Source: Candidatus Nanopelagicales bacterium
GTDB taxonomy: Bacteria > Actinomycetota > Actinomycetes > S36-B12
Length of the DNA: 40,240 nucleotides
Assembly: GCA_049317345.1 (NCBI GenBank)
Contig: JBMOIL010000001.1
Span: forward strand, 1 to 40,240
Reading direction: 5' to 3'
In this document: positions 11,915 to 29,142 of the stretch, in pieces
How positions within the stretch are numbered: position 1 is the stretch's first letter
Layout: every line of letters begins with the position of its first letter
Made by a program: the position numbers and the translations under genes
The notes under the pieces: model-generated
Seen by the model: the letters and a program-made list of their open reading frames with translations, nothing else
What the model was told of the DNA's origin: nothing
Databases searched by the model: none

Positions 11915-11948
11915 TCGACGAGAGATAGCGAAGACGATGACAGCCCCC

Positions 11949-12722: not shown

Positions 12723-12749
12723 GTGCACCTCCCTTCGCGCATGCTCAGG

Positions 12750-14419: not shown

Positions 14420-14429
14420 CGGATCGACC

Positions 14430-16312: not shown

Positions 16313-18465
16313 AGGATCATGGCCCTCGGGTTCAGGTCGGCCTCGCCGTAGCCCCCATCGCGCCAGCCCAAGAGTGGAGGTACGTCGTAGAGCCGGCCGG
16401 GTGCGTAGCGATTCCAGAAATGGCGGATGCCCGGGGCGTAGGTCCGCACGATGCTCAGTTGCATGTCCGGCCGGCTGGAGTCGGCCCAGAGCACGGTGAG
16501 GCCAGCGTGCTCCATGCGAGCGACCACGTCATCGATGGCGTCACCCAGGGCGGCGTAGCGGGGCGCATCGGGCGGGGCGACATGACCGTGCGGGGCCATC
16601 CACGGGTGGTCGGCGACGGTCACCTGCGTGAACCACTTCTGCTCCCCGGGACCCATGCCCTCGACCGCATCGGTCACGCAGCGATAGAAGCCGGCCTGCA
16701 TCTGGGCCAGCTCGGTGAGGGCGCGGACGACGGCGAGAGCCGGATCGACGTGCGCGCCGTATCCCATGATCGGAGCCTGTGTGGACGGCATGCCCTGCGC
16801 AACAGCAACCGCGGCCGGGATCCCGAGGTCGGAGGTGATGTCCAGGACCCAAACCTCGTTGCCGAGCGCACGCTGCGGCGCGAGAGCCGCTTCGATCCGA
16901 GGGTCATCCCACGCAGCGAGGTCGAACGCCGGACGGTTGCACATCGGATGCCACCACAGCGCAACCGAGTCGCGTTCGACCAACTCGAGCAGGCCCTGGA
17001 GGATCGCCTCTTCAAGCGTGTTGCCGGCGGCAGCGCCGTTGGAAGATCCGCGGTAGGCGCCCGGATCCAGACCGGGCCAGTCGAACCACACGAGCGATGA
17101 CGGCAACCACCTCGTCTCACCGGTGCGCAGATCCGCGACCGGGCTCCAGTCGTGCTCGACCTCGACGTCGAAGGGGAGTGGGACCGGTCGATGGCCAGCC
17201 TGATCGGGCACATTCAGCATCCCGAACGCGGCAAGTCCCTCGGCCTTGCGTAATTGCGCTTCGCTGAAGAGCTCGACGTCATTGGGGTGGATGGCACCCT
17301 CGAGGTCAGCCATACGGGCCCGTCTGAACGGCTCGCCCCCCGTCGCCCGCAGTCCGCCTCGCTCCAAAGCCTCCGCGAGCGCCCCGGTGCGAGCGCCCGA
17401 CCGGGTGATCCCCTTCCCGCCCGCACCCGACCTCAGTCGCGAGGAGAATGCAACGGGATCGTCCAGCGCTGCGGCGTTCAGCCCGGACGAGTAGGAGCGC
17501 AGCTCACGGCGGGGCCCGGGGACGACGTAGGGCACCAGACCGACGACGTCATTGACGAGGTGAGCGTGGTCGTCCCATGTGTCCTCCGGGTCCACCGTGC
17601 GATAGCCGCCCCCGCCACCGTCGTCGAAGGTCGCGTCCTCCAGTGACAGCGGGCCATCGAGATGTCGCATCCGCGCAGTCGGGCCACCCGGCTCGCACGC
17701 GGCGCACCCAGGGACGGGAACGACCACGTACCGCTGCATCGCCGCAGTACTGACATCGAAGGCGACGACCTGCCTCTCCCACTCCGATGCTGTGGCAATC
17801 TGCGCGACGGCGGCAGCGGCAGCGGCCACGGATGACGGATGACGGATCGGGTGAGCCGGTGGTACCGCGAGTCCGACGCGCTGCGCGCCGACGACCTCGG
17901 CGGACAGGCGATGGCGCAAGCGAGCGTCCAGGCATGCGGGGCAGCGACCGCGCTCCCCGGGGACGAGAACCGGGCTGACGACCGCACGCGCCCCCCGCAT
18001 GCTCACGGCGACGTATGGACCGTCCGGCACCTGATCCGCCCCTTGCATCGCGAGCGCGTGGGGGACGACAACGACCGGGAGCGCGCCGGGTGAGTCGTGC
18101 ACATCTACGCCGATGGCGCGCAGCGCCTCCGAGAGGAGATGAGCGTCATCGAGGCCATCGGTGGCGTCGATAACACGCACGGAGGCAGGAGTGGGGCCCA
18201 CAGCCGAGCCTTGGTCGACAACATGTCCCGATGCTCGCCACTTGCCCAGGATTTCGCGCGCACGGTCACGAGCAAGTCCCGCGGACTCCGCACTCGCGAC
18301 GATCGTCTCCTCGTCGCCACCCGCGTCCACGGCACGCGCCAGGGGGCCGGCGCCTCGACCGGCGAGGCGCACGGGGCCATCACCACCGAACATCCAGACT
18401 TCAGCGTCGTCGGCGCTCACGATGATCGAGCGGTCAGGTCGCCACGACAGGCTCGCCGATGTCAT
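16309..18465 (-). CDS. Fused cyclodehydratase: E1/ThiF-like docking domain + YcaO (SagD-type) domain
   Basis: The N-terminal half has paired CxxC motifs (RCPACLD ... GCAACEPG), typical of the ocin-ThiF-like domain. The C-terminal half has YcaO motifs (GAGGKGITRSGARTGALAEALER, SSNGAAAGNTLEEAILQGLLELVERD). The start is set at ATG 18465, because the longer ORF (to 19005) would run antisense through precursor A1. ATG 18576 is also possible. Confidence 0.85.
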   Translation of the reverse strand: MTSASLSWRPDRSIIVSADDAEVWMFGGDGPVRLAGRGAGPLARAVDAGGDEETIVASAESAGLARDRAREILGKWRASGHVVDQGSAVGPTPASVRVIDATDGLDDAHLLSEALRAIGVDVHDSPGALPVVVVPHALAMQGADQVPDGPYVAVSMRGARAVVSPVLVPGERGRCPACLDARLRHRLSAEVVGAQRVGLAVPPAHPIRHPSSVAAAAAAVAQIATASEWERQVVAFDVSTAAMQRYVVVPVPGCAACEPGGPTARMRHLDGPLSLEDATFDDGGGGGYRTVDPEDTWDDHAHLVNDVVGLVPYVVPGPRRELRSYSSGLNAAALDDPVAFSSRLRSGAGGKGITRSGARTGALAEALERGGLRATGGEPFRRARMADLEGAIHPNDVELFSEAQLRKAEGLAAFGMLNVPDQAGHRPVPLPFDVEVEHDWSPVADLRTGETRWLPSSLVWFDWPGLDPGAYRGSSNGAAAGNTLEEAILQGLLELVERDSVALWWHPMCNRPAFDLAAWDDPRIEAALAPQRALGNEVWVLDITSDLGIPAAVAVAQGMPSTQAPIMGYGAHVDPALAVVRALTELAQMQAGFYRCVTDAVEGMGPGEQKWFTQVTVADHPWMAPHGHVAPPDAPRYAALGDAIDDVVARMEHAGLTVLWADSSRPDMQLSIVRTYAPGIRHFWNRYAPGRLYDVPPLLGWRDGGYGEADLNPRAMIL

Positions 18466-18633: not shown

Positions 18634-18903
18634 ATGGCTGTCCCGACACGATCCGAAGTGGAGGCGACCATCGCCGAGCGGATCGCCGCCGACCCCGCCT
18701 TCCGCGACGGGCTCCTCGCTGATCCCCGCGCCGTACTCTCCGAGGTCGTCGGCTTCGACATCCCCGACACCGTCCAGGTCGTCCTGCACGAGGAGTCCCT
18801 CACCCAGATCCACCTCACCATCCCCTCCAGCGCCGAGCTCAGCGAGAGCGACCTCGAGCTCGTCGCAGGCGGCAGGTGCTGGGTGGATGGGTGCACCACA
18901 TGA
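18634..18903 (+). CDS. NHLP-leader RiPP precursor A1 (core RCWVDGCTT)
   Basis: GGAGG lies 6 nt upstream of the ATG. The leader is MAVPTRSEVEATIAERIAADPAFRDGLLADPRAVLSEVVGFDIPDTVQVVLHEESLTQIHLTIPSSAELSESDLELVAGG. Confidence 0.9.
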   Translation: MAVPTRSEVEATIAERIAADPAFRDGLLADPRAVLSEVVGFDIPDTVQVVLHEESLTQIHLTIPSSAELSESDLELVAGGRCWVDGCTT

Positions 18904-19051
18904 GGTAGCACTCCGTGAAGGAGCAGGCAGCGACAAGTTGAGCCTGGCGCATGCCCCCCACTTGTTCATCGAAAGCGTTTCGTTCGGTGGCCCGTTTAGG
19001 CCCATACGTCAATGAACCTGTGCGTCAAGCGCTGTCGACTTGGAGGTCTCC

Positions 19052-19348
19052 ATGGCTGTTCCCACCCGATCCGAGGTCGAGGCGATCATCGCTGAGCGCA
19101 TCGCTGCCGATCCTGCCTTCCGCGACGCACTCCTCGCCAACCCGCGCGCCGTACTCTCCGAAATCGTCGGCCTCGACATCCCCGACGGTATTCAGATCGA
19201 CCTGCACGAGGAATCGCTCACCCAGATCCACCTCACCATTCCCGGCACAGAGGAACTCAGCGACTCCGACCTCGAACTCGTCGCGGGCGGGTTCTGGGCT
19301 GGCGATGAGGCATGCGAGAGCGGCTCGTGCTCATGCGACCACGGCTGA
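19052..19348 (+). CDS. NHLP-leader RiPP precursor A2 (core FWAGDEACESGSCSCDHG)
   Basis: GGAGG RBS. It has the same leader family, with the EIVGLDIPDGIQIDLHEE variant, and ends in LELVAGG. Confidence 0.9.
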   Translation: MAVPTRSEVEAIIAERIAADPAFRDALLANPRAVLSEIVGLDIPDGIQIDLHEESLTQIHLTIPGTEELSDSDLELVAGGFWAGDEACESGSCSCDHG

Positions 19349-19447
19349 CGCCCCCATGAATTGATCTCAACGGGGGGGTGACAGCGACACCCAAGGGGCC
19401 TAGAGTTGTCGGTCGACACGCCGTGCCTATCTACGTGGAGGCTTGCT

Positions 19448-19738
19448 ATGGCTGTTCCCACCCGCGCCGAAGTCGAGGCGACCATCGCCGAGCGCATCGC
19501 GGCCGACCCTGATTTCCGCGACGCGCTGCTGGCCGACCCTCGCGCCGTACTATCCGAGCTTGTCGGCTTCAACATCCCCGAGAGCGTCCAGATCGTCCTA
19601 CACGAGGAATCTCTCACCCAGATCCACCTCACCATCCCGTCCAGCCAGGAACTAAGCGAGGCCGACTTGGAACTGGTGGCTGGCGCCGGGGAGTGCTGGT
19701 CAGAGTTCAACATGTGCTGCTCCGCCGGCTGCATCTAG
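19448..19738 (+). CDS. NHLP-leader RiPP precursor A3 (core ECWSEFNMCCSAGCI after LELVAGAG)
   Basis: GGAGG lies upstream of the ATG. The leader begins MAVPTRAEVEATIAERIAADPDFRD... and has the GAG variant of the double-glycine site. Confidence 0.9.
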   Translation: MAVPTRAEVEATIAERIAADPDFRDALLADPRAVLSELVGFNIPESVQIVLHEESLTQIHLTIPSSQELSEADLELVAGAGECWSEFNMCCSAGCI

Positions 19739-19760
19739 CCGTCAACGACGTGGAGATCGC

Positions 19761-19835
19761 ATAGCTCTTCCAACGCGATCCGAGGTGGGACGCTCATCGC
19801 TGAGTGCACCGCCGCCGATCTTGCTGGTCGGACTG
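19761..19835 (+). pseudogene. Decayed precursor relic (leader 5' end only; ATG->ATA plus a 1-nt deletion)
   Basis: By eye, acgtggag-n5-ATAgctcttccaacgcgatccgaggt-gggacgctcatcgctgagtgcaccgccgccgatc aligns with the A2/A3 start region at roughly three quarters of positions. The homology fades after ~75 nt. Confidence 0.55.
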
Positions 19836-19935
19836 CAGACAAGCCGGGCTCTGTTCGTGTCCGACAACCTAGGGCGTTTGGACTCGACGGATCCACATGC
19901 GCTGTAGCGTCAACCCTGGATGGAAGAGGTGACTT

Positions 19936-21501
19936 GTGCTTCGGACGGATAGCCCAGTCGTGAGCACGCTCGAGCGGCCGCTCGTGCTTACGGACCGCTT
20001 GCGCCCCTTCGTGTGGCAGGGTCGTCAGTACGCACATACGTCGGCTGTGCCTTTGGCCTACCTATCTGTTTCTGCTCCGACATGGGCGTTGCTTCAGCAG
20101 TTCGCCACTGCGCGACGGCCAGGCGACCTCCTCTCCGAGGCAACGCTTGCGGACACGGTATTCCTCGATGAGTTGGTGACCGCTGGGATCCTTCTTGACG
20201 CCGAGCGGCCCGATCCCGTGCACTCCTTCACGCCGCGCTCGGATGCTGTGGCTACCTTCTTTCTCTATCCAACGAGTTCATGCAATCTGCGGTGCGTCTA
20301 CTGCTACGCGACTTCAGGCCCCGGCTCTGGCCCACGCCTGAGCCTTGAGCACGCACTCATGGCGATCGAGGACTTCTTCGAGGGCCTCGGACCGCAGGTG
20401 GAAGTGGCGGAGCTCAACTTCCACGGAGGGGGTGAGCCCACGACTAACTTCGCTGTGATGGAGTCCTCCTGGCAGCGCTTTCGTGCTCTCGCAGCCGAGC
20501 GGGGTCTTCGTTCATCTGTCAACACGATCACCAACGGCACATTCGGTCCGAGCGTGCTGCGCACACTGTCCCAGCCGGAATGGTCCGTCATGGTCTCCTA
20601 CGACGGGCCCCGCCAGGCAGACCAGAGGCCCACAGCCGCCGGGACCGACAGCCGAGATCGAGTCATCGCGAATCTGCGCGCCCTTCGCGAGTCGGGGAAG
20701 CACATCTCCACGCGCGCGACCCTGACACGAGATGGGCTCCCCTTCCTTAATGCCCTTGTCGAAGACGCCGCCGACGTGGGAATCGGATCGGTGCAAATCG
20801 AGGCGGCCAGTCTCGTGGGGCGGGGAGCCAACCTCGAGGACGGACCACCCGATCCGCTGGAGTTCGCCGAGGCATTCCTCGACGCCTTTCGCCTCGGGCT
20901 CAGCCTCGGAGTGCACGTGACGACCGCAGGCCTTTCCCATGCCCGGGTCGGCAACGGGCGGCACTGCGGGGCCATCTCAGGACTCACCGCGCTGACCCCG
21001 GATGGCTTTGTCTCAGCGTGCGTCGAGGCCACGGACGGCAATGACCCCGAGGATCCCTTCATCATTGGCACCCTCAACTCGATCACCTCCCGACTCGAGA
21101 TCTGGCCCCTGCGCGAAGAAAAGCTGCAGTCGCGCGTCGGCTACGACATGCCCCACTGCTCCTCGTGCTACATGGTGGACACGTGCGCAGGTGGCTGCGC
21201 CTCCCGTGCACGTGCGCGGCACGGGAGTGCCTTCGTGCGTGACGAGGCGCACTGCGTGGTCTCGCGACGCGTGAATCCCGAGGTGATGTCGGATCTGGCG
21301 GATGGACGGCTACTGCCGGACATCGGTTGGCAGCCCCGCGAAGCCGAGCTACGCGAAGGCGAGTCGTCGATCGCCGGGGCGACCGGTCGCGTGGTCGAGC
21401 TCGTGCCGAGCTACGCCCGGCGCGTGTGGAACGCCGACCCGCGTCGGCGCCCCTTCGTGCCGGTTCCGCTCCGGCCACAGTTCTTCCACCTCCCGGCCTA
21501 G
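19936..21501 (+). CDS. Radical SAM enzyme with a full SPASM domain and an N-terminal RRE-like (PqqD-like) region
   Basis: GTG start. It has CNLRCVYCY (Cx3Cx2C) and a complete 7-Cys SPASM pattern: HCGAISGLTALTPDGFVSAC (C-x12-G-x4-C), CSSCYMVDTCAGGC (Cx2Cx5Cx3C) and a distal C in EAHCV. About 110 aa precede the rSAM core. Confidence 0.85.
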   Translation: MLRTDSPVVSTLERPLVLTDRLRPFVWQGRQYAHTSAVPLAYLSVSAPTWALLQQFATARRPGDLLSEATLADTVFLDELVTAGILLDAERPDPVHSFTPRSDAVATFFLYPTSSCNLRCVYCYATSGPGSGPRLSLEHALMAIEDFFEGLGPQVEVAELNFHGGGEPTTNFAVMESSWQRFRALAAERGLRSSVNTITNGTFGPSVLRTLSQPEWSVMVSYDGPRQADQRPTAAGTDSRDRVIANLRALRESGKHISTRATLTRDGLPFLNALVEDAADVGIGSVQIEAASLVGRGANLEDGPPDPLEFAEAFLDAFRLGLSLGVHVTTAGLSHARVGNGRHCGAISGLTALTPDGFVSACVEATDGNDPEDPFIIGTLNSITSRLEIWPLREEKLQSRVGYDMPHCSSCYMVDTCAGGCASRARARHGSAFVRDEAHCVVSRRVNPEVMSDLADGRLLPDIGWQPREAELREGESSIAGATGRVVELVPSYARRVWNADPRRRPFVPVPLRPQFFHLPA

Positions 21502-21504
21502 ACC

Positions 21505-22485
21505 GTGGCGAGCAACCGCCTGTCGTGGATGAACTCCTGGGACAGAGCGGCAGACACCTTCCAGACACACGACGCACCCGCCTACGCACGGCTCGCGCGT
21601 GCCTTCGCCGACGAGCCCGAGGCAGGTGTTCCCGAGTCCCCGCTCGTCGTACTCGCGGCGCTGCGGTTGGCCGCATTCGAGGGGCGCGCCACCGACCCCT
21701 TCGTGGGCGACGTAGAAGCTACGAGGGCCGATGCGCTCCGTCTAGCCGACGAGATCAGCGAGGCGGTGGCAACGGGTCTGGTGCAGTACACCGATCCACT
21801 GCGTCTCGGCGACATCGTTCCGGGCCTGTGCCTCACCTCCCAGTGGTACCCCGGCCGGCCATTGCGCATCGTCGACCTGGGGACGTCCGCCGGCATGCTG
21901 CTCCTGGCTTCGGACATCTCCATCCGGTTTAGCAACGCCGCCTGGACGCCCCAGGGATCTCTCGAAGCCGTCGACTACCCCATGGCGGTCCCACGGGACC
22001 TGCTTGCCACACCCGTGCCGATTGAGTCCGCCGTGGGCATCGACCTCCGACCGCTCGACGCCCGTGACCCGCGCACTCCGAGGCTCCTGCATTCGTACCA
22101 GTGGCCCGGTCCGGCCCAGCGCGAGGAGCGCCTCGACCTGGGCATCCGGGTCGCCTCCCGACGCCCGCCTCACTTGATCGCGGGGGACGTGCTCGAGGTC
22201 GCTCCGGATGTGATCCGCGAGTGCCTGTCCCGCGAGGCGGTCACGGTCGTGATCGACAGCGCCTTCTCTCACTATCTCCCCGTGCATGCCCAGGTGCAGT
22301 TGGGCCGGATCCTCGACATGCTCCGCGGGCTCGGGCCACTGGTGATGGTGGGGCGCGGCCCACAAACAGCGGCTAACCGCGCACGCTCGACGATTCGGGC
22401 CATCGACATGACCGGACAGCGACGGATGGTGTACGCCGAAACCGACTTGCTCAGTGAATCGCCCGCATGGGTCGCGTCCCCGTGA
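21505..22485 (+). CDS. DUF2332-like protein (methyltransferase-like fold suspected)
   Basis: GTG start 3 nt after the rSAM stop. From memory it resembles DUF2332 proteins: YARLARAFADEPE, IVDLGTSAGMLLL (a glycine-rich loop) and LLHSYQWPGPAQREERL. Confidence 0.5.
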   Translation: MASNRLSWMNSWDRAADTFQTHDAPAYARLARAFADEPEAGVPESPLVVLAALRLAAFEGRATDPFVGDVEATRADALRLADEISEAVATGLVQYTDPLRLGDIVPGLCLTSQWYPGRPLRIVDLGTSAGMLLLASDISIRFSNAAWTPQGSLEAVDYPMAVPRDLLATPVPIESAVGIDLRPLDARDPRTPRLLHSYQWPGPAQREERLDLGIRVASRRPPHLIAGDVLEVAPDVIRECLSREAVTVVIDSAFSHYLPVHAQVQLGRILDMLRGLGPLVMVGRGPQTAANRARSTIRAIDMTGQRRMVYAETDLLSESPAWVASP

Positions 22486-22536
22486 AGTAGGGGGCATACT
22501 CAAGGAGTCACTAGACCATGATGCCCGGAGGTCCAC

Positions 22537-22821
22537 ATGGCTATTCCCACCCGCTCCGAAGTCGAGGCGATCATCGCTGAGCGCATCGCTGCCGATCCTG
22601 GCTTCCGCGACGCACTTCTCGCCGACCCGCGCGCCGTACTCTCCGAGGTCGTCGGCTTCGACATCCCTGAGACGGTACAGGTGGTCCTGCACGAGGAGTC
22701 CCTCACGCAGATCCACCTCACCATCCCCTCCAGCGAGGCACTCAGCGAGAGCGATCTCGAACTCGTCGCCGGAGGCATATTGTGCTGGTCCGACGGGTGC
22801 TACCCGTATCCGGCGTCTTAG
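22537..22821 (+). CDS. NHLP-leader RiPP precursor A4 (core ILCWSDGCYPYPAS)
   Basis: GGAGG RBS, conserved leader, LELVAGG site. Confidence 0.9.
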   Translation: MAIPTRSEVEAIIAERIAADPGFRDALLADPRAVLSEVVGFDIPETVQVVLHEESLTQIHLTIPSSEALSESDLELVAGGILCWSDGCYPYPAS

Positions 22822-22986
22822 CCCGCTTCGATCCAGCCGGTGAACAACCGCTGCCATCAAGAACTCCCCGGATAGCGGCGGGGATGGGTCTGCCGGAGTG
22901 GTTCACGGCAGTGCACGTGAAGGTGATGCAGCCGAACTCAACATCACCCTGCCGGGCCCGCTCGACACTGATGCCCGGAGGTCCCC

Positions 22987-23268
22987 ATGGCTATTCCCAC
23001 TCGCTCCGAAGTCGAGGCGATCATCGCCGAGCGCATCGCCGCCGATCCTGGCTTCCGCGACACCTTGCTCGCCGACCCCCGCGCCGTGCTGTCCGAGGTC
23101 GTCGGCTTCGACATCCCCGAGAGCGTCCAGGTCGTCCTGCACGAGGAATCCCTGACCCAGATCCACCTCACCATCCCCTCGAGCGAGACACTCAGCGAAG
23201 CCGAGCTCGAACTCGTCGCCGGAGGCGCATGCTGGGCCGATGGCGGCGGCACCGTGATCTGCGCCTAA
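22987..23268 (+). CDS. NHLP-leader RiPP precursor A5 (core ACWADGGGTVICA)
   Basis: GGAGGTCCCC-ATG context, conserved leader, LELVAGG site. Confidence 0.9.
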   Translation: MAIPTRSEVEAIIAERIAADPGFRDTLLADPRAVLSEVVGFDIPESVQVVLHEESLTQIHLTIPSSETLSEAELELVAGGACWADGGGTVICA

Positions 23269-23389
23269 CGAGTGCAGTGGACCCCGCGACATGCCCTCAG
23301 GGCCAAGAGTTCACGCGCAAACCGCCGCGCGCCCCTCAAGTAGGGGGCATACTCGATGAACCACTCACCCCTGATGCTCGGAGGTCCCC

Positions 23390-23674
23390 ATGGCTATTCC
23401 CACCCGCTCCGAAGTCGAAGCGATCATCGCTGAACGCATCGCCGCCGACCCCGCCTTCCGCGACACCCTGCTGGCCGACCCCCGCGCCGTGCTGTCCGAG
23501 GTTGTCGGCTTCGACATCCCAGACAACGTCCAGGTCGTCCTACACGAGGAATCCCTCACCCAGATCCACCTCACCATCCCCTCCAGCGAGGAACTCAGTG
23601 AGAGCGACCTCGAACTCGTCGCCGGAGCAGGGTGGGGGGATGACATACGAAATCGCCCAGAGGGCTGCGCTTAG
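23390..23674 (+). CDS. NHLP-leader RiPP precursor A6 (core WGDDIRNRPEGCA after LELVAGAG)
   Basis: GGAGGTCCCC-ATG context, conserved leader, GAG variant site. Confidence 0.85.
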   Translation: MAIPTRSEVEAIIAERIAADPAFRDTLLADPRAVLSEVVGFDIPDNVQVVLHEESLTQIHLTIPSSEELSESDLELVAGAGWGDDIRNRPEGCA

Positions 23675-23733
23675 CCACCGGGCCCGCAGAGCCGCCATAC
23701 TCACCAATCACGCAGGCCCATACGGAGGACCCC

Positions 23734-24012
23734 ACGGCCGTTCCCACTCGTTCTGAGGTCGAGGCGATTATTGCTGAGCGCATCGCCGCCGACCCCGGCT
23801 TCCGCGACACACTGCTGGCCGACCCGCGCGCCGTACTCTCCGAAATCGTCGGCCTCGACATCCCCGACACCGTCCAGATCGACCTACACGAAGAATCCCT
23901 CACCCAAATCCACCTCACCATCCCCTCCAGCGAGGCACTCAGCGACGCCGACCTCGAACTCGTCGCCGGAGGAACGTGCTGGTCGGAAGGGTGCTATCAC
24001 CCCGAGCCCTGA
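23734..24012 (+). pseudogene. Precursor A7 with a lost start codon (ACG in place of ATG); otherwise an intact frame (core TCWSEGCYHPEP)
   Basis: The context is tacGGAGGaccccACGgccgttcccactcgt.... The frame is open from 23644 to TGA at 24010-24012 with no in-frame ATG, GTG or TTG between the upstream stop and the leader. It translates to (T)AVPTRSEVEAIIAERIAADPGFRDTLL...LELVAGGTCWSEGCYHPEP. Confidence 0.7.
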
Positions 24013-24132
24013 CGAGCGCATCGGACCCCGCGACATGACCTCAGGGTCAAGAGTTCACGCGGAAACCACGGCGCGCCCCTGTGGTGGGGGAATACTCAAT
24101 AGATCACTCGTCCCTGATGCTCGGAGGTCCCC

Positions 24133-24438
24133 ATGGCTATTCCCACCCGCTCCGCAGTCGAAGCGATCATCGCTGAGCGCATCACCGCCGACCCCGCCTT
24201 CCGCGACACACTCCTCGCCGACCCGCGCGCCGTACTCTCCGAAATCGTCGGCCTCGACATCCCCGACACCGTCCAGATCGACCTGCACGAAGAATCCCTG
24301 ACCCAGATCCACCTCACCATCCCCGCCAGCGAGGCACTCAGCGACGCCGACCTCGAACTCGTCGCCGGCGGCGGAGTCTGGGGACCCCCAGTGAGTTGCG
24401 GAACCCCCGATCCGGTCACCTGCGAAAACCCCGGCTGA
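24133..24438 (+). CDS. NHLP-leader RiPP precursor A8 (core GVWGPPVSCGTPDPVTCENPG)
   Basis: GGAGGTCCCC-ATG context. The leader has the ITADP and EIVGLDIPDTVQIDLHEE variants and a LELVAGG site. Confidence 0.9.
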   Translation: MAIPTRSAVEAIIAERITADPAFRDTLLADPRAVLSEIVGLDIPDTVQIDLHEESLTQIHLTIPASEALSDADLELVAGGGVWGPPVSCGTPDPVTCENPG

Positions 24439-24439
24439 G

Positions 24440-24504
24440 AGGTCCCTCCGGCACTTCTCACTCAGCCAGAGGTCGAGGAGATCATCACCGAGCGAGTTGC
24501 CGAT
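24440..24504 (+). pseudogene. Decayed precursor relic (RBS-like gaggtccc plus ~12 leader codons, ..PEVEEIITERVAD..)
   Basis: gagaggtccctccggcacttctcactcagccagaggtcgaggagatcatcaccgagcgagttgccgat parallels ggaggtccccatggct...gaagtcgaggcgatcatcgctgagcgcatcgccgccgat. It has no start codon, and the homology ends after GAT. Confidence 0.5.
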
Positions 24505-24633
24505 GGGGCGGGGGGAACCGGCAGTCGATATCGGCGGTCAGGAAGTCCGCGGGCGATCCCTAGCGGCTAGCCGCGCCTGGGCCCCATACTGAGACCACCT
24601 GCACGAGTTCCGTGCCTGGCACCGGAGGTCCCC

Positions 24634-24918
24634 ATGGCCGTCCCCACCCGCTCTGAAGTCGAGGCAATCATCGCTGAGCGCATCGCCGCCGATCCTGGCT
24701 TCCGCGACACTCTCCTCGCCGATCCTCGCGCTGTGCTGTCCGAGGTTGTCGGCTTCGACATCCCCGAGGGCGTCCAGGTCGTCCTGCACGAGGAATCCCT
24801 CACCCAAATCCACCTCACCATCCCCTCCAGCGAGGAACTCAGCGAGAGCGACCTCGAACTCGTCGCCGGAGGAATGTGCTGGTCGGATGTGTGCAGTTGC
24901 CTCTCCATCGGGCCCTGA
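24634..24918 (+). CDS. NHLP-leader RiPP precursor A9 (core MCWSDVCSCLSIGP)
   Basis: GGAGGTCCCC-ATG context, conserved leader, LELVAGG site. Confidence 0.9.
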   Translation: MAVPTRSEVEAIIAERIAADPGFRDTLLADPRAVLSEVVGFDIPEGVQVVLHEESLTQIHLTIPSSEELSESDLELVAGGMCWSDVCSCLSIGP

Positions 24919-25038
24919 CGAGCGCATCGGACCCAGTGACATGCCCTTAGGGTCACGAGTTCACGCGGAAACCACCGCGCGCCCCTGAGATAGGGACATA
25001 CTCAACGAACCACTCGCCCCTGATGCTCGGAGGTCCCC

Positions 25039-25311
25039 ATGGCTATTCCCACCCGCTCCGCAGTCGAAGCGATCATCGCTGAGCGCATCGCCGCCGATCC
25101 TGGCTTCCGCGACGCACTTCTCGCCGACCCGCGCGCCGTACTCTCCGAGGTCGTCGGCTTCGACATCCCTGAGACGGTACAGGTGGTCCTGCACGAGGAG
25201 TCCCTCACGCAGATCCACCTCACCATCCCCTCCAGCGAGGCACTCAGCGACGCCGACCTCGAGTTGGTTGCCGGCGGGGTGTGCTGGTCCAACCCGGCCT
25301 GCGTGGGATGA
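25039..25311 (+). CDS. NHLP-leader RiPP precursor A10 (core VCWSNPACVG)
   Basis: GGAGGTCCCC-ATG context, conserved leader, LELVAGG site. A 158-nt tract is identical to A4. Confidence 0.9.
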   Translation: MAIPTRSAVEAIIAERIAADPGFRDALLADPRAVLSEVVGFDIPETVQVVLHEESLTQIHLTIPSSEALSDADLELVAGGVCWSNPACVG

Positions 25312-25324
25312 CCTGCGGTCCGTA

Positions 25325-25624
25325 GTGGCGCCTACTCCCACCCGCTCCGAGGTCGAAGCGATCATCGCTGAACGCATCGCCGCCGACCCCGCCTTCCGCG
25401 ACACCCTGCTCGCTGACCCCCGCGCCGTTCTGTCCGAGGTCGTCGACGTCAACATCCCCGAAGGCGTACAGATCGTCCTGCACGAGGAGTCCCTCACCCA
25501 GATCCACCTCACCATCGCCTCGTCGGGAAGTCTCACCGAATCCGACCTCGAACTCGTCGCCGGCGGGTTTTGGCGGGGCGGCCATGACGGAGGTCCCGGT
25601 CCCCACTGGTCGGACACCTCCTGA
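25325..25624 (+). CDS. NHLP-leader RiPP precursor A11, divergent N-terminus, Cys-free core (FWRGGHDGGPGPHWSDTS)
   Basis: The probable GTG start lies 13 nt after the A10 stop, with no GGAGG. The leader is (M)APTPTRSEVEAIIAERIAADPAFRDTLL...IASSGSLTESDLELVAGG. The ORF track's ATG at 25268 lies inside A10. Confidence 0.65.
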   Translation: MAPTPTRSEVEAIIAERIAADPAFRDTLLADPRAVLSEVVDVNIPEGVQIVLHEESLTQIHLTIASSGSLTESDLELVAGGFWRGGHDGGPGPHWSDTS

Positions 25625-25647
25625 TGCGGCACGACCTGCGGTCCCTA

Positions 25648-25932
25648 GTGGCGCCCGTCCGCACCCGCTCCGCAGTCGAAGCGATCATCGCTGAGCGCAT
25701 CACCGCCGATCCTGGCTTCCGCGACACCCTCCTCGCCGACCCGCGCGCCGTACTCTCCGAAATCGTCGGCCTCGACATCCCCGACACCGTCCAGATCGAC
25801 CTGCACGAAGAATCCCTCACCTAGATCCACCTCACCATCCCCTCCAGCGACGAACTCACCGAATCCGACCTCGAACTCGTCGCCGGAGGCGGCAATTGCT
25901 GGTCGAACAGTTGTCGCTTTCCGGGAGCGTGA
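25648..25932 (+). pseudogene. Precursor A12 interrupted by an in-frame TAG (at the conserved Gln of SLTQIHL); the downstream frame is intact (core GNCWSNSCRFPGA)
   Basis: TAG at 25822-25824 sits where all other copies have CAG or CAA. The same frame continues IHLTIPSSDELTESDLELVAGGGNCWSNSCRFPGA to TGA at 25930-25932. The start is GTG 25648 or ATG 25624. Confidence 0.7.
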
Positions 25933-26089: not shown

Positions 26090-26872
26090 ATGGAGGGCAG
26101 CGTCTCCCCCGTGGCGAGGGTCGATCAGGTAGCCACTTTCGCTCGCCCACGCATGTGGGTGGCCCTGATCGGGATCATCGTGCTGCTCCTGGCATTCATT
26201 GCCTGGGGCTTCATCGCCCGGGCACCGGTCAGCGTCGCTGTCGGCGGTCTCATCACCACATCCGGTGGCGTCTCCGCCATCAGGAGTTCGCTGACCGGCA
26301 CGGTGAGCGCGGTCTACGTCGACATCGGGGACCGGGTCGACGTCGGCACCAGCGTCGTGTCGATCAAGGACGATCTCGGTGCCTCGGCAGAAGTCAGGGC
26401 CAAGATCCCCGGCACCGTGCTCGAGGTCGCCACAAGGGTCGGAGCCTTTGTCACCGCAGGACAGGAACTGATGATCCTGCAGACAAACGACGAGCCGCTC
26501 ACCGCCATCGCACTCGTGCCGGTGACCGACTCTGGTCGCATCACATCGGGCCAACAGGTGCTCATCTCCCCCTCCTCCGCATCACCATCGGAGTACGGCT
26601 ACATCCAGGGCACCGTGGACTCGGTAAGCGGTATTCCCATCAGTTCAGCGCGCCTCGAGCAGCTCACTGCGGGGATTGCCGGGCTGGCCAATTCCGAGGA
26701 CCTGACCGGGCCGGTGCTCGAGGTCAGCATCGTTCTCGCGTCTGCGGACACGACCTCGGGCTATGCCTGGACCATCGGCGCGGGTCCGCCGTTCGCGCTG
26801 CTCGCGGGGACGCCCTTCACAGGAGAGATCATCGTGGGCGAGCAGGCCCCGCTCGTGCGATTGCTGGGCTGA
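26090..26872 (+). CDS. NHLP-type bacteriocin system secretion protein (HlyD-like), set 2
   Basis: It has the same architecture as 4122-4922: VDQVATFARPRMWVALIGIIVLLLAFIAW as the TM helix, then a beta-rich body. An in-frame TAG at 26078 fixes the start. A TGATG junction links it to the next gene. Confidence 0.7.
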   Translation: MEGSVSPVARVDQVATFARPRMWVALIGIIVLLLAFIAWGFIARAPVSVAVGGLITTSGGVSAIRSSLTGTVSAVYVDIGDRVDVGTSVVSIKDDLGASAEVRAKIPGTVLEVATRVGAFVTAGQELMILQTNDEPLTAIALVPVTDSGRITSGQQVLISPSSASPSEYGYIQGTVDSVSGIPISSARLEQLTAGIAGLANSEDLTGPVLEVSIVLASADTTSGYAWTIGAGPPFALLAGTPFTGEIIVGEQAPLVRLLG

Positions 26873-29142
26873 TGCACGTCCCCGTGCGCCTCGCACTCGG
26901 CGCCAACGAGACGGGCGTCGCCTGCCTGGCGATGCTCCTCGCCGCGTGCGGGACGCGCATCGGCCAGGAGGAACTGATCAGGACCATCGGCGTCACGCGC
27001 GACGGACTGAGCTTCCGTGAACTCGCCGACACCGCTGAGGTTTACGGCGTCCGTGCCGAGATCCGGTCCGGCAACCCCGACGTACTCGACTCAATGGCCC
27101 TTCCCGCGATGGTGCGATGGGGCCACTCGCACGCTCGCGTACTTGAGTCGCGCACCCGCAGCGGCTGGGTCGCCGTCGACCCGATCCTGGGGCGCCTGCA
27201 GATCAGCGATGACGACCTGCGGGCGGCCTGGGGCGGGGAGGCGCTCGCGCTGGACGGATCGACGGCGCGCCGAGGAGTTAAGTTGTGGACGGGCGTGGGA
27301 CGTCGGCTGAAGGGCAGTGGGCCCGGAATCGCGTTCGTCGTGCTTGCCGGCCTCGCGCTCATCATCCCGGGCCTGCTGGCCCCGGCGCTCATCCGCGCAT
27401 TCGTCGACGAGTACCTGATTGCCGGCGACCGGCAGGGATCGCTCAGCATCTTCATCGGGCTCGTGGCCGCGTTGGCGGTCGGTCTCGTGATCGGCTACCT
27501 GCAGGCACGCGGCCTGCAGCGCCTGCTCACCGTCTCCGTCATCCGCAACGCCTCCCACTTCGTCTGGCATCTCCTGCGCATGCCCGCGTGGTTCCTGACC
27601 CAGCGCGACGCCACGACCCTCTCCTACCGGGTGCGCCTGAACGAGCAACTCGCCGACGTAATCTCAGGTCGGTTCGCAACGGCGCTGCTAGCCGAGCTCA
27701 CCAGCGTGTTCTACCTCGTGGTGATGTTCGTCTATTCCCCGATCCTCGGTCTCATCGCCCTATCCGGACCCCTGCTCGTCATCGTCCTCGTCTGGCGCAT
27801 CACGCTGCTGCGCTCGGAGGTACGCCAGCGGCAGGCGCGCGAAGTCTCGGTAACGGCCACCGAACTAGGCGTCACCTTGCGCATGATCGAAACGCTGAAG
27901 GCGACCGGAAGTGAAGATGTCGCTTTCCAGCGCACCTTTGCATCCGTGGGCCGCCGCATCACCCTGGGGTATACCCGGCTATGGGGCTATCTCGCCATGG
28001 TCCCGGTGCTGGCCAACTCCCTCGCCACCGCTCTCGTCCTCTGCGTCGGGGCCTACCTCGTCATGCAGGGCAGCATCACCCAGGGCACCCTGGCGGCGTT
28101 CAGCATCCTGCTCGGTGGCTTCCTTGCTCCCCTCATCATCCTCGTGCCGACCATCGACTCGGTGCTCAATCTCCGGGGAGCCTGGGAGCAGTTGAACGAT
28201 GTGCTCAACCAGCCCGTGGAAGCGTCACTTGGGGACCCCTACGCCGATGGGGTCGACCCAGACGTCCCTGCGGAGGAGCGTGCGACCACGCGGCCAGGGG
28301 TATCTCATCCGGCATCAGCGCAGGCCACAGCGGTCGAAGAAGAGGAGGATCCCCTCGACCTGCTCGCCGCGGCCAGCAGGTCGGGGGTCAGCGGACGGCG
28401 CAAGCGTGGGCTGGCCATCGATCCGTGGGCGGCCTCACTCACCCTCAACGACGTGACCTTCGGCTACTCGCCGCGGCAGCCGCCGCTGCTCGACTGCGTA
28501 TCCCTGCAGGCTGAGCCAGGCCGCGTGATCGCCATCGTCGGTCCTAGCGGCAGCGGTAAGTCGACAGTCGGGCGCCTTGTCGGCGGGCTCTACCGGCCCT
28601 GGAGCGGAGCGGTCCTCCTCGACGGGCGCCCCATCGAGTCCTACCCCAGGGATGCGCGTGCGCGCGAGGTGACCTTCGTCAACCAAGACGTCGTGCTCTA
28701 CGCCGCCACAATCCGCGACAACATCACGATGTTTGATCCAGGCATCCGCGATCGCGACATCATCGCCGCCGCCCGGGATGCCTGCGTCCATGACGACATT
28801 ACGGCGCGACCGGGAGGGTACGACTCGATACTGGCTGAGGATGGCCGAGATCTGTCCGGAGGGCAGCGTCAGCGCCTGGTGATCGCCCGCGCACTGGTGC
28901 GCAGGCCTCGGCTCATCGTCCTCGATGAGGCAACGAGTGCGCTCGATGCGCGGACCGAGGCGCAGGTAGTCCAGCACCTGCGCGACCGCGGATGCACGGT
29001 GCTCGTCGTCGCTCATCGCCTGTCCACCGTGCGTGATGCGGACGAGATCATCGTGCTCGACGACGGCCGTGTCGCCCAGCGGGGCACCCACTCCACGCTG
29101 GCCGGCGAGCCTGGCCCCTACCTGGATCTGATGTCGTCATGA
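26872..29142 (+). CDS. ABC exporter with a degenerate C39-like N-terminal domain (permease/ATPase), set 2
   Basis: ATG at 26872 overlaps the HlyD2 stop. The N-terminus RLALGANETGVACLAMLL aligns with ILQMEVTECGAASLGMVL of set 1, with Gln->Ala and the catalytic Cys->Thr (acg at 26911-26913). It has a TM region, Walker A GPSGSGKST, signature LSGGQRQR and Walker B LIVLDEATSALD. Confidence 0.85.
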   Translation: MHVPVRLALGANETGVACLAMLLAACGTRIGQEELIRTIGVTRDGLSFRELADTAEVYGVRAEIRSGNPDVLDSMALPAMVRWGHSHARVLESRTRSGWVAVDPILGRLQISDDDLRAAWGGEALALDGSTARRGVKLWTGVGRRLKGSGPGIAFVVLAGLALIIPGLLAPALIRAFVDEYLIAGDRQGSLSIFIGLVAALAVGLVIGYLQARGLQRLLTVSVIRNASHFVWHLLRMPAWFLTQRDATTLSYRVRLNEQLADVISGRFATALLAELTSVFYLVVMFVYSPILGLIALSGPLLVIVLVWRITLLRSEVRQRQAREVSVTATELGVTLRMIETLKATGSEDVAFQRTFASVGRRITLGYTRLWGYLAMVPVLANSLATALVLCVGAYLVMQGSITQGTLAAFSILLGGFLAPLIILVPTIDSVLNLRGAWEQLNDVLNQPVEASLGDPYADGVDPDVPAEERATTRPGVSHPASAQATAVEEEEDPLDLLAAASRSGVSGRRKRGLAIDPWAASLTLNDVTFGYSPRQPPLLDCVSLQAEPGRVIAIVGPSGSGKSTVGRLVGGLYRPWSGAVLLDGRPIESYPRDARAREVTFVNQDVVLYAATIRDNITMFDPGIRDRDIIAAARDACVHDDITARPGGYDSILAEDGRDLSGGQRQRLVIARALVRRPRLIVLDEATSALDARTEAQVVQHLRDRGCTVLVVAHRLSTVRDADEIIVLDDGRVAQRGTHSTLAGEPGPYLDLMSS

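What the first reader, a model, noticed from the sequence alone, without database searches (positions are those of the whole stretch)
18634..25932. Twelve paralogous precursors: near-invariant ~80-aa leader, hypervariable 9-21-aa cores (one-cluster peptide library)
Seen: there are 12 copies of the leader M-A-[VI]-P-T-R-S-x-V-E-A-x-I-A-E-R-I-[AT]-A-D-P-x-F-R-D-x-L-L-A-[DN]-P-R-A-V-L-S-E-...-H-E-E-S-L-T-Q-I-H-L-T-I-...-[DE]-L-E-L-V-A-G-[GA]-(G). Sequence conservation collapses exactly at the Gly-Gly site. The cores are A1 RCWVDGCTT, A2 FWAGDEACESGSCSCDHG, A3 ECWSEFNMCCSAGCI, A4 ILCWSDGCYPYPAS, A5 ACWADGGGTVICA, A6 WGDDIRNRPEGCA, A7 TCWSEGCYHPEP, A8 GVWGPPVSCGTPDPVTCENPG, A9 MCWSDVCSCLSIGP, A10 VCWSNPACVG, A11 FWRGGHDGGPGPHWSDTS and A12 GNCWSNSCRFPGA. 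Established: many-precursor, one-enzyme-set arrangements are known for the prochlorosins (NHLP/Nif11 leaders with LanM). Inference: here the same library logic is attached to a different and larger enzyme set, in a high-GC Gram-positive-type genome.
Basis: seen in the sequence. Interest (0 to 1): 0.85.

Follow-up and report, generated by a model that had tools for sequence, protein, structure and literature searches.

The report
Tandem NHLP-leader RiPP precursor array
The window holds a real tandem family of twelve peptide-precursor genes with a shared 80-residue NHLP-type leader and different short cores, but this "many precursors, one enzyme set" layout was described for this leader family in 2010, and three of the twelve copies look defective.

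Summary
The twelve copies are real and sit at the stated coordinates. All have an 80-codon leader ending GG or GA. The leader is a bona fide NHLP leader (TIGR03793, 60-64 bits, cutoff 50.9). Conservation does collapse at the Gly-Gly site: leader nucleotide identity is 0.85, leader third positions 0.72 and homologous spacers 0.84-0.87, but cores reach 0.50 against 0.47 for shuffled sequence.

- Only nine copies are clean. A7 has ACG instead of ATG. A11 and A12 lack a Shine-Dalgarno and start at GTG. A12 carries an in-frame TAG.
- The leader is 85% identical, not near-invariant.
- Cores are not fully hypervariable. All keep a Trp, most as C-W-S-[D/N/E], followed by a variable Cys-rich tail.

The array sits in a hybrid cluster: a LynD-like YcaO with SagB, an uncharacterised RRE-radical-SAM/SPASM enzyme, DUF2332, sulfotransferase-fold proteins and two NHLP-type exporters. 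Near-identical metagenome strains carry 7 copies; more distant relatives of the same clade carry about 10 or at least 9. Cores there are either identical or swapped wholesale, so turnover is by cassette recombination in the leaders.

The library logic is published (Haft 2010: 12 NHLPs with one cyclodehydratase). This is a new member of a known kind, though its enzyme chemistry is unknown.

The parts
18634..18903 (+). A1 precursor, core RCWVDGCTT; intact (GGAGGT Shine-Dalgarno, ATG)
   Evidence: The same core occurs in other samples on diverged leaders (P0150, P0154).
19052..19348 (+). A2 precursor, core FWAGDEACESGSCSCDHG; intact
   Evidence: Core is identical in L001 (0/54 nt differences).
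19448..19738 (+). A3 precursor, leader ends GA, core (G)ECWSEFNMCCSAGCI; intact
19936..21501 (+). RRE-radical SAM-SPASM peptide maturase of an unnamed subfamily, lying between A3 and A4
   Evidence: Pfam Radical_SAM and TIGR04085 SPASM (32.2 bits, cutoff 27). C116/C120/C123 are invariant. AF2 model has pLDDT 86.8 with an N-terminal beta3-alpha3 domain; the best folds are TigE 8vpo and CteB 5wgg.
21505..22485 (+). DUF2332 protein, co-conserved with the rSAM enzyme
   Evidence: Pfam PF10094, 113.8 bits. Adjacent to the rSAM gene in L001, L006, L007, L010, L011, L017, L084-L089. Only a weak methyltransferase-like fold match, TM about 0.25-0.3.
22537..22821 (+). A4 precursor, core ILCWSDGCYPYPAS; intact
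   Evidence: 100% nucleotide identity to the L001 copy.
22875..22984 (+). Frameshifted relic of a different NHLP-like precursor, in the A4-A5 spacer
   Evidence: tblastn with the L084 2-310 peptide gives two frames, 82% over 11 aa and 64% over 25 aa.
22987..23268 (+). A5 precursor, core ACWADGGGTVICA; intact
   Evidence: In L001 the same leader carries the core TCWSDGFPYPAS.
23390..23674 (+). A6 precursor, leader ends GA, core (G)WGDDIRNRPEGCA; intact
23734..24012 (+). A7 copy, core TCWSEGCYHPEP; start codon is ACG, so probably not translated
   Evidence: Intact ortholog P0119 begins MAIPTRS.
24133..24438 (+). A8 precursor, core GVWGPPVSCGTPDPVTCENPG; intact
24439..24570 (+). Relic of a leader N-terminus in the A8-A9 spacer
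   Evidence: Leader HMM positions 2-21, E 0.023; weak.
24634..24918 (+). A9 precursor, core MCWSDVCSCLSIGP; intact
   Evidence: Core is identical in L001 although the leader differs at 16 nt.
25039..25311 (+). A10 precursor, core VCWSNPACVG; intact
   Evidence: Leader is a mosaic with A4.
25325..25624 (+). A11 copy, Cys-free core FWRGGHDGGPGPHWSDTS; GTG start 13 nt after the A10 stop, no Shine-Dalgarno; doubtful
25648..25932 (+). A12 copy, core GNCWSNSCRFPGA; no Shine-Dalgarno, GTG start, in-frame TAG at 25825-25827; pseudogene
   Evidence: The intact ortholog in L001/L002 has CAG and GGAGGT...ATG.
16309..18465 (-). Fused leader-binding (E1-like) + YcaO heterocyclase, transcribed divergently from A1
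   Evidence: Pfam YcaO 240.8 bits; TIGR03882 64.7 bits (cutoff 36.9). LynD, TruD and MusD at E 1e-69 to 1e-82.
9867..11210 (+). SagB-family azoline dehydrogenase (exact start uncertain)
   Evidence: TIGR03605 101 bits (cutoff 78.4). Nitroreductase and ThcOx Pfam hits.
11207..16312 (-). Six co-oriented tailoring-candidate genes: Sulfotransfer_4 (11207-11986), unknown (11949-12749), unknown (12750-13751), PhyH-like dioxygenase (13685-14464), unknown (14430-15512), Sulfotransfer_4 (15440-16312)
   Evidence: Syntenic in L001, L084 and L087-L089.
4020..9936 (+). Export set 1: HlyD-like adaptor, ABC transporter with an intact C39 double-glycine peptidase (4922-7108), second ABC subunit
   Evidence: The C39 domain matches LahT150 (6mpz) at E 3e-42 with QMEVTECG, His and Asp present.
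26090..31292 (+). Export set 2: HlyD-like adaptor, ABC transporter with a C39-like domain lacking the catalytic Cys and Gln (26872-29142), second ABC subunit

Best explanation
The region is a tandem, birth-and-death family of NHLP-leader RiPP precursor genes serving one hybrid maturation pathway. It is a natural combinatorial library with a constant head and a variable tail.

Proposed mechanism:
1. The structured 80-residue leader is the common handle.
2. It is recognised by the leader-binding domain fused to the LynD-like YcaO heterocyclase, and probably by the N-terminal RRE-like domain of the radical SAM/SPASM enzyme.
3. The rSAM enzyme, with its co-conserved DUF2332 and sulfotransferase-fold partners, most likely acts on the invariant Trp-centred head (C-W-S-D/N/E).
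4. YcaO and SagB convert Cys in the variable Cys/Gly/Ser-rich tail to thiazol(in)es.
5. A C39 double-glycine peptidase/ABC exporter cuts after ...L(-12)..L(-7)..V(-4)AGG and exports the product.

Nine copies (A1-A6, A8-A10) are intact. A7, A11 and A12 are decaying.

New repertoires arise by homologous recombination within the conserved leader DNA, which duplicates, deletes and swaps whole core cassettes. They do not arise by in-place hypermutation of cores.

Shown: the family assignments, the conservation pattern, the defects, and the strain-to-strain cassette turnover.
Inferred: expression of each copy, which enzyme modifies which residue, and the chemistry.
For: Family assignments:
- Leader: TIGR03793, 59.9-63.6 bits against a cutoff of 50.9. 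The leader has no Cys. -12/-7/-4 are L/L/V and the end is GG or GA in all 12 copies. This matches the C39 recognition rule quoted in PMC12537861.
- Enzymes: YcaO resembles LynD/TruD. TIGR03882 and SagB score above their cutoffs. The rSAM has a SPASM domain, an RRE-like N-terminus, and a CteB/TigE-like fold.
- Exporters: NHLP-type exporters are the best hits. Export set 1 has an active-site-complete, LahT150-like C39 domain.

Selection on the copies:
- Leader dN/dS is 0.20 with dS 0.45, so these are old paralogs held by selection, not recent duplicates.
- Core GC3 is 0.77, against 0.67 in spacers.
- Nine copies have GGAGG followed by ATG.
- Specific cores persist unchanged on diverged leaders in other samples: the A1, A6 and A10 cores appear in P0150/P0154, P0220 and P0224.

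Constant head:
- Trp is 96/96 and D/N/E at W+2 is 86/96.
- The head is also present in distant rSAM-linked loci L008-L020, most of which have no YcaO nearby.

Recombination:
- Against L001 (97-99% identical flanks), A4 plus its spacer are 100% identical.
- The A5 leader is nearly identical, and identity then breaks at the core.
- The A2, A3, A4 and A9 cores show 0 differences while their leaders show 8, 1, 0 and 16.
- The 12 leaders are mosaic: the A4-A10 shared run has p<0.002 and a PHI-like test gives p=0.008.
- Copy number is 7 in L001, about 10 in L089, at least 9 in L090 and 3-5 in L084-L088. Frameshifted or truncated relics occur in each.
Against: - There are no expression or product data of any kind.
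- No promoters or terminators stand out above chance.
- Three of the 12 copies are defective, and at least 2 relics lie in the spacers. The fraction that is truly productive is unknown.
- The exporter adjacent to the array has a C39-like domain without the catalytic Cys. Cleavage must be assigned to the distal set 1.
- The exporter proteins score below NCBIfam equivalog cutoffs.
- The rSAM chemistry is undetermined. All named rSAM families score far below their cutoffs.
- Four cores lack the Cys at W-1, and A11 has no Cys at all. They may not be substrates for every enzyme.
Confidence: 0.75

Rival explanations
1. Mostly debris. One or a few precursors are the real substrates, and the remaining copies are non-functional by-products of unequal crossing-over in a repeat-prone region.
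For: - A7 has lost its start, A11 has no Shine-Dalgarno, and A12 has a nonsense codon.
- Relic fragments lie in the window's spacers.
- Frameshifted or truncated copies occur in L084, L086, L089 and L090.
- Most distant family members manage with 1-3 precursors.
Against: - Leader dN/dS is 0.20 across old paralogs with dS 0.45.
- Nine copies keep a Shine-Dalgarno, ATG and an open frame.
- Cores keep coding-like GC3.
- Individual cores are conserved exactly between strains and across samples on diverged leaders.
Confidence: 0.15
2. Targeted hypermutation. Core diversity is produced in place by a dedicated diversity-generating mechanism, for example a retroelement-type mutator.
For: The drop in identity falls sharply at the leader/core junction while the flanking non-coding spacers stay 84-87% identical.
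Against: - Between near-identical strains, cores are either 100% identical or replaced together with their downstream spacer. The break begins inside the leader.
- Leaders show recombination mosaics.
- No reverse transcriptase or template repeat appeared among the ORFs scanned.
Confidence: 0.03
3. Assembly artefact. The array is a chimeric or mis-collapsed assembly of fewer real copies from mixed strains.
For: - The repeats are 240-nt leaders of 77-95% identity in what is probably a metagenome-derived contig.
- Relatives differ in copy number.
Against: - The copies are well diverged from each other and carry unique cores and spacers.
- Independent contigs from other samples show the same kind of array: L001-L005, L089, L090.
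- The order A2-A3-rSAM-DUF2332-A4-A5 is reproduced at 96.7% identity over 4.6 kb in L001.
Confidence: 0.04
4. Multi-component product. The peptides are not independent library members but subunits that act together, like two-peptide bacteriocins.
For: - Two core types coexist, CW-type and GW-type. Both types recur across relatives.
- Tandem NHLP pairs that work together are proposed for Burkholderia (PMC2887384).
Against: Copy number and composition vary freely between close strains (7 in L001 against 12 here), with no fixed pairing.
Confidence: 0.08

Closest known systems
NHLP precursor families in TOMM clusters (Haft, Basu & Mitchell 2010; e.g. 12 NHLPs with one fused cyclodehydratase in Pelotomaculum thermopropionicum)
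   Same: - The same leader family (TIGR03793).
- A Gly-Gly boundary where conservation ends.
- Cys/Gly/Ser-rich variable cores.
- A fused docking+YcaO cyclodehydratase and a SagB dehydrogenase.
- A three-gene NHLP-type exporter.
- Even the same copy number.
   Different: - The host is an uncultured Actinomycetota lineage.
- An extra, uncharacterised RRE-rSAM-SPASM enzyme, DUF2332 and two sulfotransferase-fold proteins are present.
- The cores carry a constant Trp-centred head.
- There are two exporter sets, and one has a Cys-less C39-like domain.
Prochlorosins (Nif11/NHLP-type leaders with one promiscuous ProcM LanM)
   Same: Many precursors with a conserved long leader and diverse cores are processed by one enzyme set and cleaved at a double glycine.
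   Different: - No LanM or LanC was found among the window ORFs scanned.
- The genes here are in one tandem array, whereas prochlorosin genes are largely dispersed.
- The chemistry is predicted to be azole formation plus a radical SAM modification, not lanthionine formation.
dpr proteusin cluster of Desulfotomaculum sp. (seven DprE NHLP precursors, DprM LanM, radical SAM enzymes; PMC12537861)
   Same: - A tandem multi-NHLP cluster with conserved leaders and divergent cores.
- It includes radical SAM enzymes and C39 transporters.
- One member lacks Cys and is not modified, which parallels A11 here.
   Different: The main macrocyclase there is a LanM. Here it is YcaO/SagB plus a different rSAM subfamily.
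Cyanobactin heterocyclases and oxidases (LynD/TruD, ThcOx)
   Same: The YcaO protein is most similar to LynD and TruD (E about 1e-82), and the dehydrogenase hits ThcOx/SagB. The logic is also shared: leader-guided, core-tolerant heterocyclisation.
   Different: - Cyanobactins put several cores in one precursor and use PatA/PatG proteases and macrocyclisation.
- Here there is one core per NHLP precursor and a double-glycine ABC peptidase.
Thioether-forming rSAM-SPASM maturases (CteB/SCIFF, PapB, QhpD) and TigE
   Same: RRE + radical SAM + SPASM architecture. They are the best sequence and fold matches.
   Different: Identity is only 18-19%. Scores are far below every family's cutoff (for example PapB 84.5 against 340). 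The substrate motif (C-W-S-D/N/E) is unlike theirs, and the reaction is unknown.

Membership tests
NHLP leader peptide RiPP precursors (TIGR03793) | HMM match above the curated cutoff over the whole leader | tested here: met
   A1, A2 and A4 score 60.7, 63.6 and 59.9 bits against a cutoff of 50.9, covering profile positions 1-77 of 77.
NHLP leader peptide RiPP precursors (TIGR03793) | Homology ends at a Gly-Gly (GG/GA) cleavage motif followed by a variable core | tested here: met
   Residues 79-80 are GG in 10 copies and GA in 2. Nucleotide identity is 0.85 before the junction and 0.50 after it (shuffled 0.47).
NHLP leader peptide RiPP precursors (TIGR03793) | Loss of the nitrile hydratase metal-binding Cys cluster | tested here: met
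   None of the 12 leaders contains a Cys (sequences). The NHase_alpha match is only partial and weak.
NHLP leader peptide RiPP precursors (TIGR03793) | Clustering with the three-gene export system TIGR03794/03796/03797 | tested here: inconclusive
   Both sets have these families as top hits, but all scores are below the equivalog cutoffs: ABC1 778 and 629 against 853, ABC2 533 and 586 against 709, HlyD 45 and 129 against 156.
Thiazole/oxazole-modified microcin (TOMM / linear azol(in)e peptide) clusters | YcaO cyclodehydratase with an E1-like/docking leader-binding partner | tested here: met
   Pfam YcaO 240.8 bits. TIGR03882 64.7 bits against a cutoff of 36.9, in the same polypeptide. LynD and TruD at E about 1e-82.
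Thiazole/oxazole-modified microcin (TOMM / linear azol(in)e peptide) clusters | SagB-type FMN dehydrogenase | tested here: met
   TIGR03605 101 bits against a cutoff of 78.4.
Thiazole/oxazole-modified microcin (TOMM / linear azol(in)e peptide) clusters | Cores rich in heterocyclisable residues | tested here: met
   Of 172 core residues, 25 are Cys, 17 Ser, 7 Thr and 27 Gly. A11 has no Cys.
Thiazole/oxazole-modified microcin (TOMM / linear azol(in)e peptide) clusters | Azol(in)e rings in the mature product | not testable with these tools
   Needs mass spectrometry of the products.
Prochlorosin-type lanthipeptide library | A LanM (class II lanthionine synthetase) acting on the precursors | tested here: not met
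   No LanM or LanC domain was found in any of the roughly 30 large ORFs scanned against Pfam/NCBIfam. A LanM elsewhere in the genome cannot be excluded.
Ranthipeptide/sactipeptide-type rSAM-SPASM maturases (PapB, SCIFF/CteB, QhpD) | CxxxCxxC radical SAM motif plus a SPASM auxiliary-cluster domain | tested here: met
   C116, C120 and C123 are invariant in 18 homologs. TIGR04085 scores 32.2 bits against a cutoff of 27.
Ranthipeptide/sactipeptide-type rSAM-SPASM maturases (PapB, SCIFF/CteB, QhpD) | Equivalog-level match to a named family | tested here: not met
   rSAM_nif11 96.8 against 518.7; PapB 84.5 against 340; QhpD 72.3 against 453; SCIFF 65.9 against 425. In the protein database, identity falls from 50% or more straight to 32%.
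Ranthipeptide/sactipeptide-type rSAM-SPASM maturases (PapB, SCIFF/CteB, QhpD) | Cys-to-carbon thioether in the product | not testable with these tools
   Needs MS/NMR. The conserved Cys and D/N/E in the head are only suggestive.
Diversity-generating retroelement | Reverse transcriptase plus a template/variable repeat pair | tested here: not met
   No RT appeared among the scanned ORFs. Orthologous cores are identical or replaced wholesale, not point-mutated.

The most novel reading that the evidence does not exclude
The array may belong to an undescribed RiPP subclass with these features:
- An RRE-radical-SAM/SPASM enzyme with two co-conserved partners (DUF2332 and a Sulfotransfer_4-fold protein) installs a new modification on an invariant Trp-centred head, C-W-S-(D/N/E).
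- In this actinobacterial clade the system has been fused with a cyanobactin-like heterocyclase/oxidase that decorates a freely varying Cys-rich tail.
- The conserved leader DNA itself serves as the recombination handle that shuffles cassettes.
- The result is several hundred distinct natural precursors (376 clusters at 90% identity in public metagenomes).
Probability: 0.35. Interest if true: 0.65.

Novelty: new member of a known kind. Interest (0 to 1): 0.4.

Why it matters
As a concept it adds little. Multi-precursor NHLP libraries served by one enzyme set have been textbook RiPP biology since 2010, and NCBI already auto-names close homologs 'NHLP leader peptide family RiPP precursor'.

Its practical value is as a well-resolved natural experiment:
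- Nine to twelve cores sit behind one leader.
- Near-identical strains carry different cassette sets.
- Relics are present at several stages of decay.
- The enzyme set is uncharacterised (rSAM subfamily, DUF2332, sulfotransferase-fold proteins) and its conserved target motif is easy to test.

Heterologous expression could deliver substrate-tolerant tailoring enzymes, and possibly a new Trp/Cys-centred cross-link.

Tried and rejected
- Conserved RNA structure in the 120-nt spacers after A5, A7 and A9: RNAalifold predicts hairpins, but 0 of 31 pairs covary. Nothing can be claimed.
- Per-gene promoters and terminators: 1 promoter-like and 3 terminator-like sites, no more than in shuffled sequence.
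- In-place hypermutation of cores: rejected, because orthologous cores are identical or swapped wholesale.
- dN/dS for the core tails: not computable, because the tails are unalignable (identity 0.46 against 0.44 for shuffled). That is itself the result.
- DUF2332 function: no PDB sequence match. The fold search gives only weak class-I methyltransferase-like hits with TM 0.25-0.32. No paper mentions DUF2332.
- Sulfotransferase-fold protein: only marginal PDB hits, E 0.002.
- Literature searches for this rSAM/NHLP/CW-motif combination or a Cys-Trp rSAM cross-link found nothing specific. The library lacks most subscription journals, so absence is weak evidence.
- My first tblastn for YcaO in relatives used an out-of-frame query. 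It was redone correctly.

Full report
**1. What is in the sequence**

A motif scan and ORF listing find twelve + strand copies of an 80-codon leader followed by a 9-21-residue core, at these coordinates:
- A1 18634-18903
- A2 19052-19348
- A3 19448-19738
- A4 22537-22821
- A5 22987-23268
- A6 23390-23674
- A7 23734-24012
- A8 24133-24438
- A9 24634-24918
- A10 25039-25311
- A11 25325-25624
- A12 25648-25932

A radical SAM gene (19936-21501) and a DUF2332 gene (21505-22485) separate A3 from A4. A leader HMM finds no other full copy in the window. It does find two relics:
- a leader N-terminal fragment at 24439-24570;
- a frameshifted fragment of a different NHLP-like precursor at 22875-22984.

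**2.

Nine copies (A1-A6, A8-A10) have GGAGG, 5-6 nt of spacing, and ATG. The other three are doubtful:
- A7 has a good Shine-Dalgarno, but ACG where ATG should be. A protein with the same core and an MAIPTRS start exists in other samples (P0119), so this is a derived loss.
- A11 and A12 follow the preceding stop by 13 and 23 nt. They have no GGAGG and could only start at GTG.
- A12 also has an in-frame TAG at 25825-25827. Its intact ortholog in the related contigs L001 and L002 has CAG, a normal Shine-Dalgarno and ATG.
- The A11 core has no Cys.

**3. Conservation pattern**

- Leaders: mean pairwise nucleotide identity 0.851 (range 0.77-0.95). Amino-acid identity is 0.85, and 49 of 80 columns are invariant.
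- Variable sites fall 23, 17 and 59 at codon positions 1, 2 and 3. dN is 0.09, dS 0.45 and the ratio 0.20.
- The copies are therefore old paralogs whose leader is held by purifying selection, not recent duplicates.
- Cores: global-alignment identity is 0.505 against 0.471 for shuffled cores. After the Trp it is 0.464 against 0.443.
- For comparison, leader third positions are 0.72 identical, and the homologous 120-nt non-coding spacers after A5, A7 and A9 are 0.84-0.87 identical.
- The collapse at Gly-Gly is real, and it exceeds neutral divergence.
- Cores still look translated: GC3 is 0.77, against 0.67 in spacers.

**4. Cores are not fully hypervariable**

- All 12 cores have Trp at core position 2-4, and 8 have C-W-[SAV]-[DEN]-x(1-3)-C.
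- A database search with A4 returned 376 precursor clusters.
- Among the top 120 there are 96 distinct cores. Trp is 96/96, Cys at W-1 is 78/96, Ser at W+1 is 62/96, D/N/E at W+2 is 86/96, and every core has at least one Cys.
- The same head appears in distant loci found through the rSAM enzyme, for example VCWTNDCTPGP, VCWSNCSDMGP, LCWTNCPSDMGP and AGWGECPDDMGGL.
- The design is a constant head plus a variable Cys/Gly/Ser/Pro-rich tail.

**5. What the genes are**

- The leader is TIGR03793 (NHLP), at 59.9-63.6 bits against a cutoff of 50.9.
- It has no Cys. It carries L(-12), L(-7), V(-4) and a terminal GG or GA in all copies. This is the recognition pattern for C39 double-glycine peptidases cited in PMC12537861.
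- The cluster spans roughly 4.0-31.3 kb. Its genes are:
  - Export set 1 (4020-9936). Its ABC protein has a LahT150-like C39 domain (6mpz, E 3e-42) with the Gln, Cys, His and Asp in place.
  - A SagB dehydrogenase (TIGR03605, 101 bits against 78.4).
  - Six minus-strand genes, including two Sulfotransfer_4-fold proteins and a PhyH-like dioxygenase.
  - A fused leader-binding + YcaO heterocyclase (TIGR03882 64.7 bits against 36.9; LynD and TruD at E about 1e-82).
  - The precursor array, with the rSAM/SPASM and DUF2332 genes inside it.
  - Export set 2 (26090-31292).
- The AF2 model of the rSAM enzyme (pLDDT 86.8) has an N-terminal three-strand/three-helix domain in front of the rSAM core. Over its full length it matches TigE and CteB, both RRE-rSAM-SPASM peptide maturases.
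- No named rSAM family comes near its cutoff.
- In the 5.8-billion-protein set, the subfamily drops from 50% identity or more (about 89 proteins, all metagenomic) straight to 32%.

**6. Comparison with relatives**

L001, an ENA metagenome scaffold, is 97-99% identical to the window in the flanking genes but has seven precursors.
- A4 and the following spacer are 100% identical.
- The A5 leader differs at 5 nt, all in its last third. Identity then breaks at the core (ACWADGGGTVICA against TCWSDGFPYPAS) and resumes at about 85-93%.
- The A2, A3, A4 and A9 cores show 0 nt differences, although their leaders differ at 8, 1, 0 and 16 nt.
- The A12 pair differs at 12 of 39 core sites, 25 of 240 leader sites and 32 of 5871 downstream sites.
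- L001's first copy joins A1-like upstream sequence to the A2 core.
- Within the window, the leaders are mosaics. A4 and A10 share a run of 59 polymorphic sites (p<0.002), and neighbouring-site incompatibility is lower than in permutations (p=0.008).

Other relatives carry about 10 (L089), at least 9 (L090), or 3-5 (L084-L088) copies. Each includes frameshifted or truncated ones.

Specific cores (those of A1, A6 and A10) recur in other samples on leaders that differ at several residues.

Together this indicates birth-and-death evolution by recombination in the conserved leader DNA, with established cores maintained by selection. It does not indicate in-place hypermutation.

**7. Which enzymes go with which part of the core (inference)**

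- The rSAM enzyme, DUF2332 and a Sulfotransfer_4-fold protein co-occur across Actinomycetota, Thermoleophilia/Solirubrobacterales, Acidobacteria and one Gammaproteobacteria-labelled MAG, together with the CW/GW head.
- YcaO was found only in the actinobacterial loci: L001, L008, L084 and L086-L090.
- I therefore assign the head to the rSAM trio and the Cys-rich tail to YcaO/SagB.
- The nearest rSAM relatives by HMM (PapB, QhpD, the SCIFF maturase) make Cys-to-carbon thioethers onto Asp, Glu or Thr. This fits a conserved Cys plus D/N/E, but it is a lead, not a test.

**8. Comparison with what is known**

- Haft, Basu and Mitchell 2010 (PMC2887384) defined NHLP. They noted that conservation ends at Gly-Gly, followed by a hypervariable core.
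- They reported 1-12 copies per genome and argued that the single fused cyclodehydratase of P. thermopropionicum processes all 12 of its NHLPs ('natural combinatorial biosynthesis').
- PMC12537861 describes a seven-NHLP cluster with a LanM and radical SAM enzymes.
- NCBI already names close homologs 'NHLP leader peptide family RiPP precursor [Actinomycetota bacterium]'.
- The finding is therefore a new member of a known kind.
- I could not find the following described anywhere: the rSAM subfamily, its DUF2332 and sulfotransferase-fold partners, or the C-W-S-D/N/E head. The searchable library is incomplete.

**9. Verdict**

- Interest is moderate (0.4). The upside lies in the uncharacterised chemistry, not in the multi-precursor layout.

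Noticed in passing
window 26872-27320 (N-terminus of the ABC protein of export set 2): The C39 domain aligns to LahT150, but it has Thr where the catalytic Cys should be and Ala where the oxyanion Gln should be (...LALGANETGVACL... against ...IMQMEALECGAASL...). His and Asp are kept. The substitution is conserved in L001 (Thr) and in the 63%-identical L017 homolog (Ser). This looks like a stable non-catalytic C39-like domain.
   Followed up: partly
window 4020-9936 and 26090-31292: The cluster has two complete NHLP-type export sets (HlyD-like, ABC1, ABC2). Set 2 is missing in relatives L084, L086 and L089, where the array is followed directly by the HAMP-domain gene or other genes. Set 2 therefore looks like a later insertion.
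   Followed up: partly
window 15892-18872 against L001 3770-6752: The YcaO gene region is only 88% identical in nucleotides (92% in amino acids) between the window and L001, while the flanks on both sides are 97-99% identical. This is a divergent heterocyclase allele inside an otherwise near-identical cluster.
   Followed up: no
window 15353-15892 against L001 3669-3770: About 540 nt in the window correspond to about 100 nt in L001. This removes the C-terminal half of the second Sulfotransfer_4 gene in L001; only residues 1-140 align there.
   Followed up: no
window 23269-23389, 24013-24132, 24919-25038: The 120-nt spacers after A5, A7 and A9 are 84-87% identical to each other, more conserved than leader third positions. 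GC-rich hairpins are predicted, but no covariation supports them.
   Followed up: partly
L084 2-310: A different NHLP-like precursor (...LSEEQLNSVAGG|LPPQDRAPLGINGLYRNPSW, no Cys or Trp head) lies upstream of SagB in a related cluster. A decayed fragment of the same gene type sits in the window's A4-A5 spacer (22875-22984).
   Followed up: partly
window 3268-4005: A matrixin-like (Peptidase_M10) ORF lies immediately upstream of export set 1. It could be a cluster-associated protease or an unrelated neighbour.
   Followed up: no
loci L010, L011, L014, L019: rSAM orthologs of 52-58% identity, with CW-type NHLP precursors found next to them in all four loci and sulfotransferase-like and/or DUF2332 neighbours in L010, L011 and L014, occur in MAGs labelled Gammaproteobacteria and Acidobacteria. 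This means either horizontal spread of the system or mis-binned contigs.
   Followed up: no
window 37514-38374 and 1226-3208: A VanX-type D-Ala-D-Ala dipeptidase (Peptidase_M15) and a copper amine oxidase flank the cluster. Both are probably unrelated housekeeping or accessory genes.
   Followed up: no
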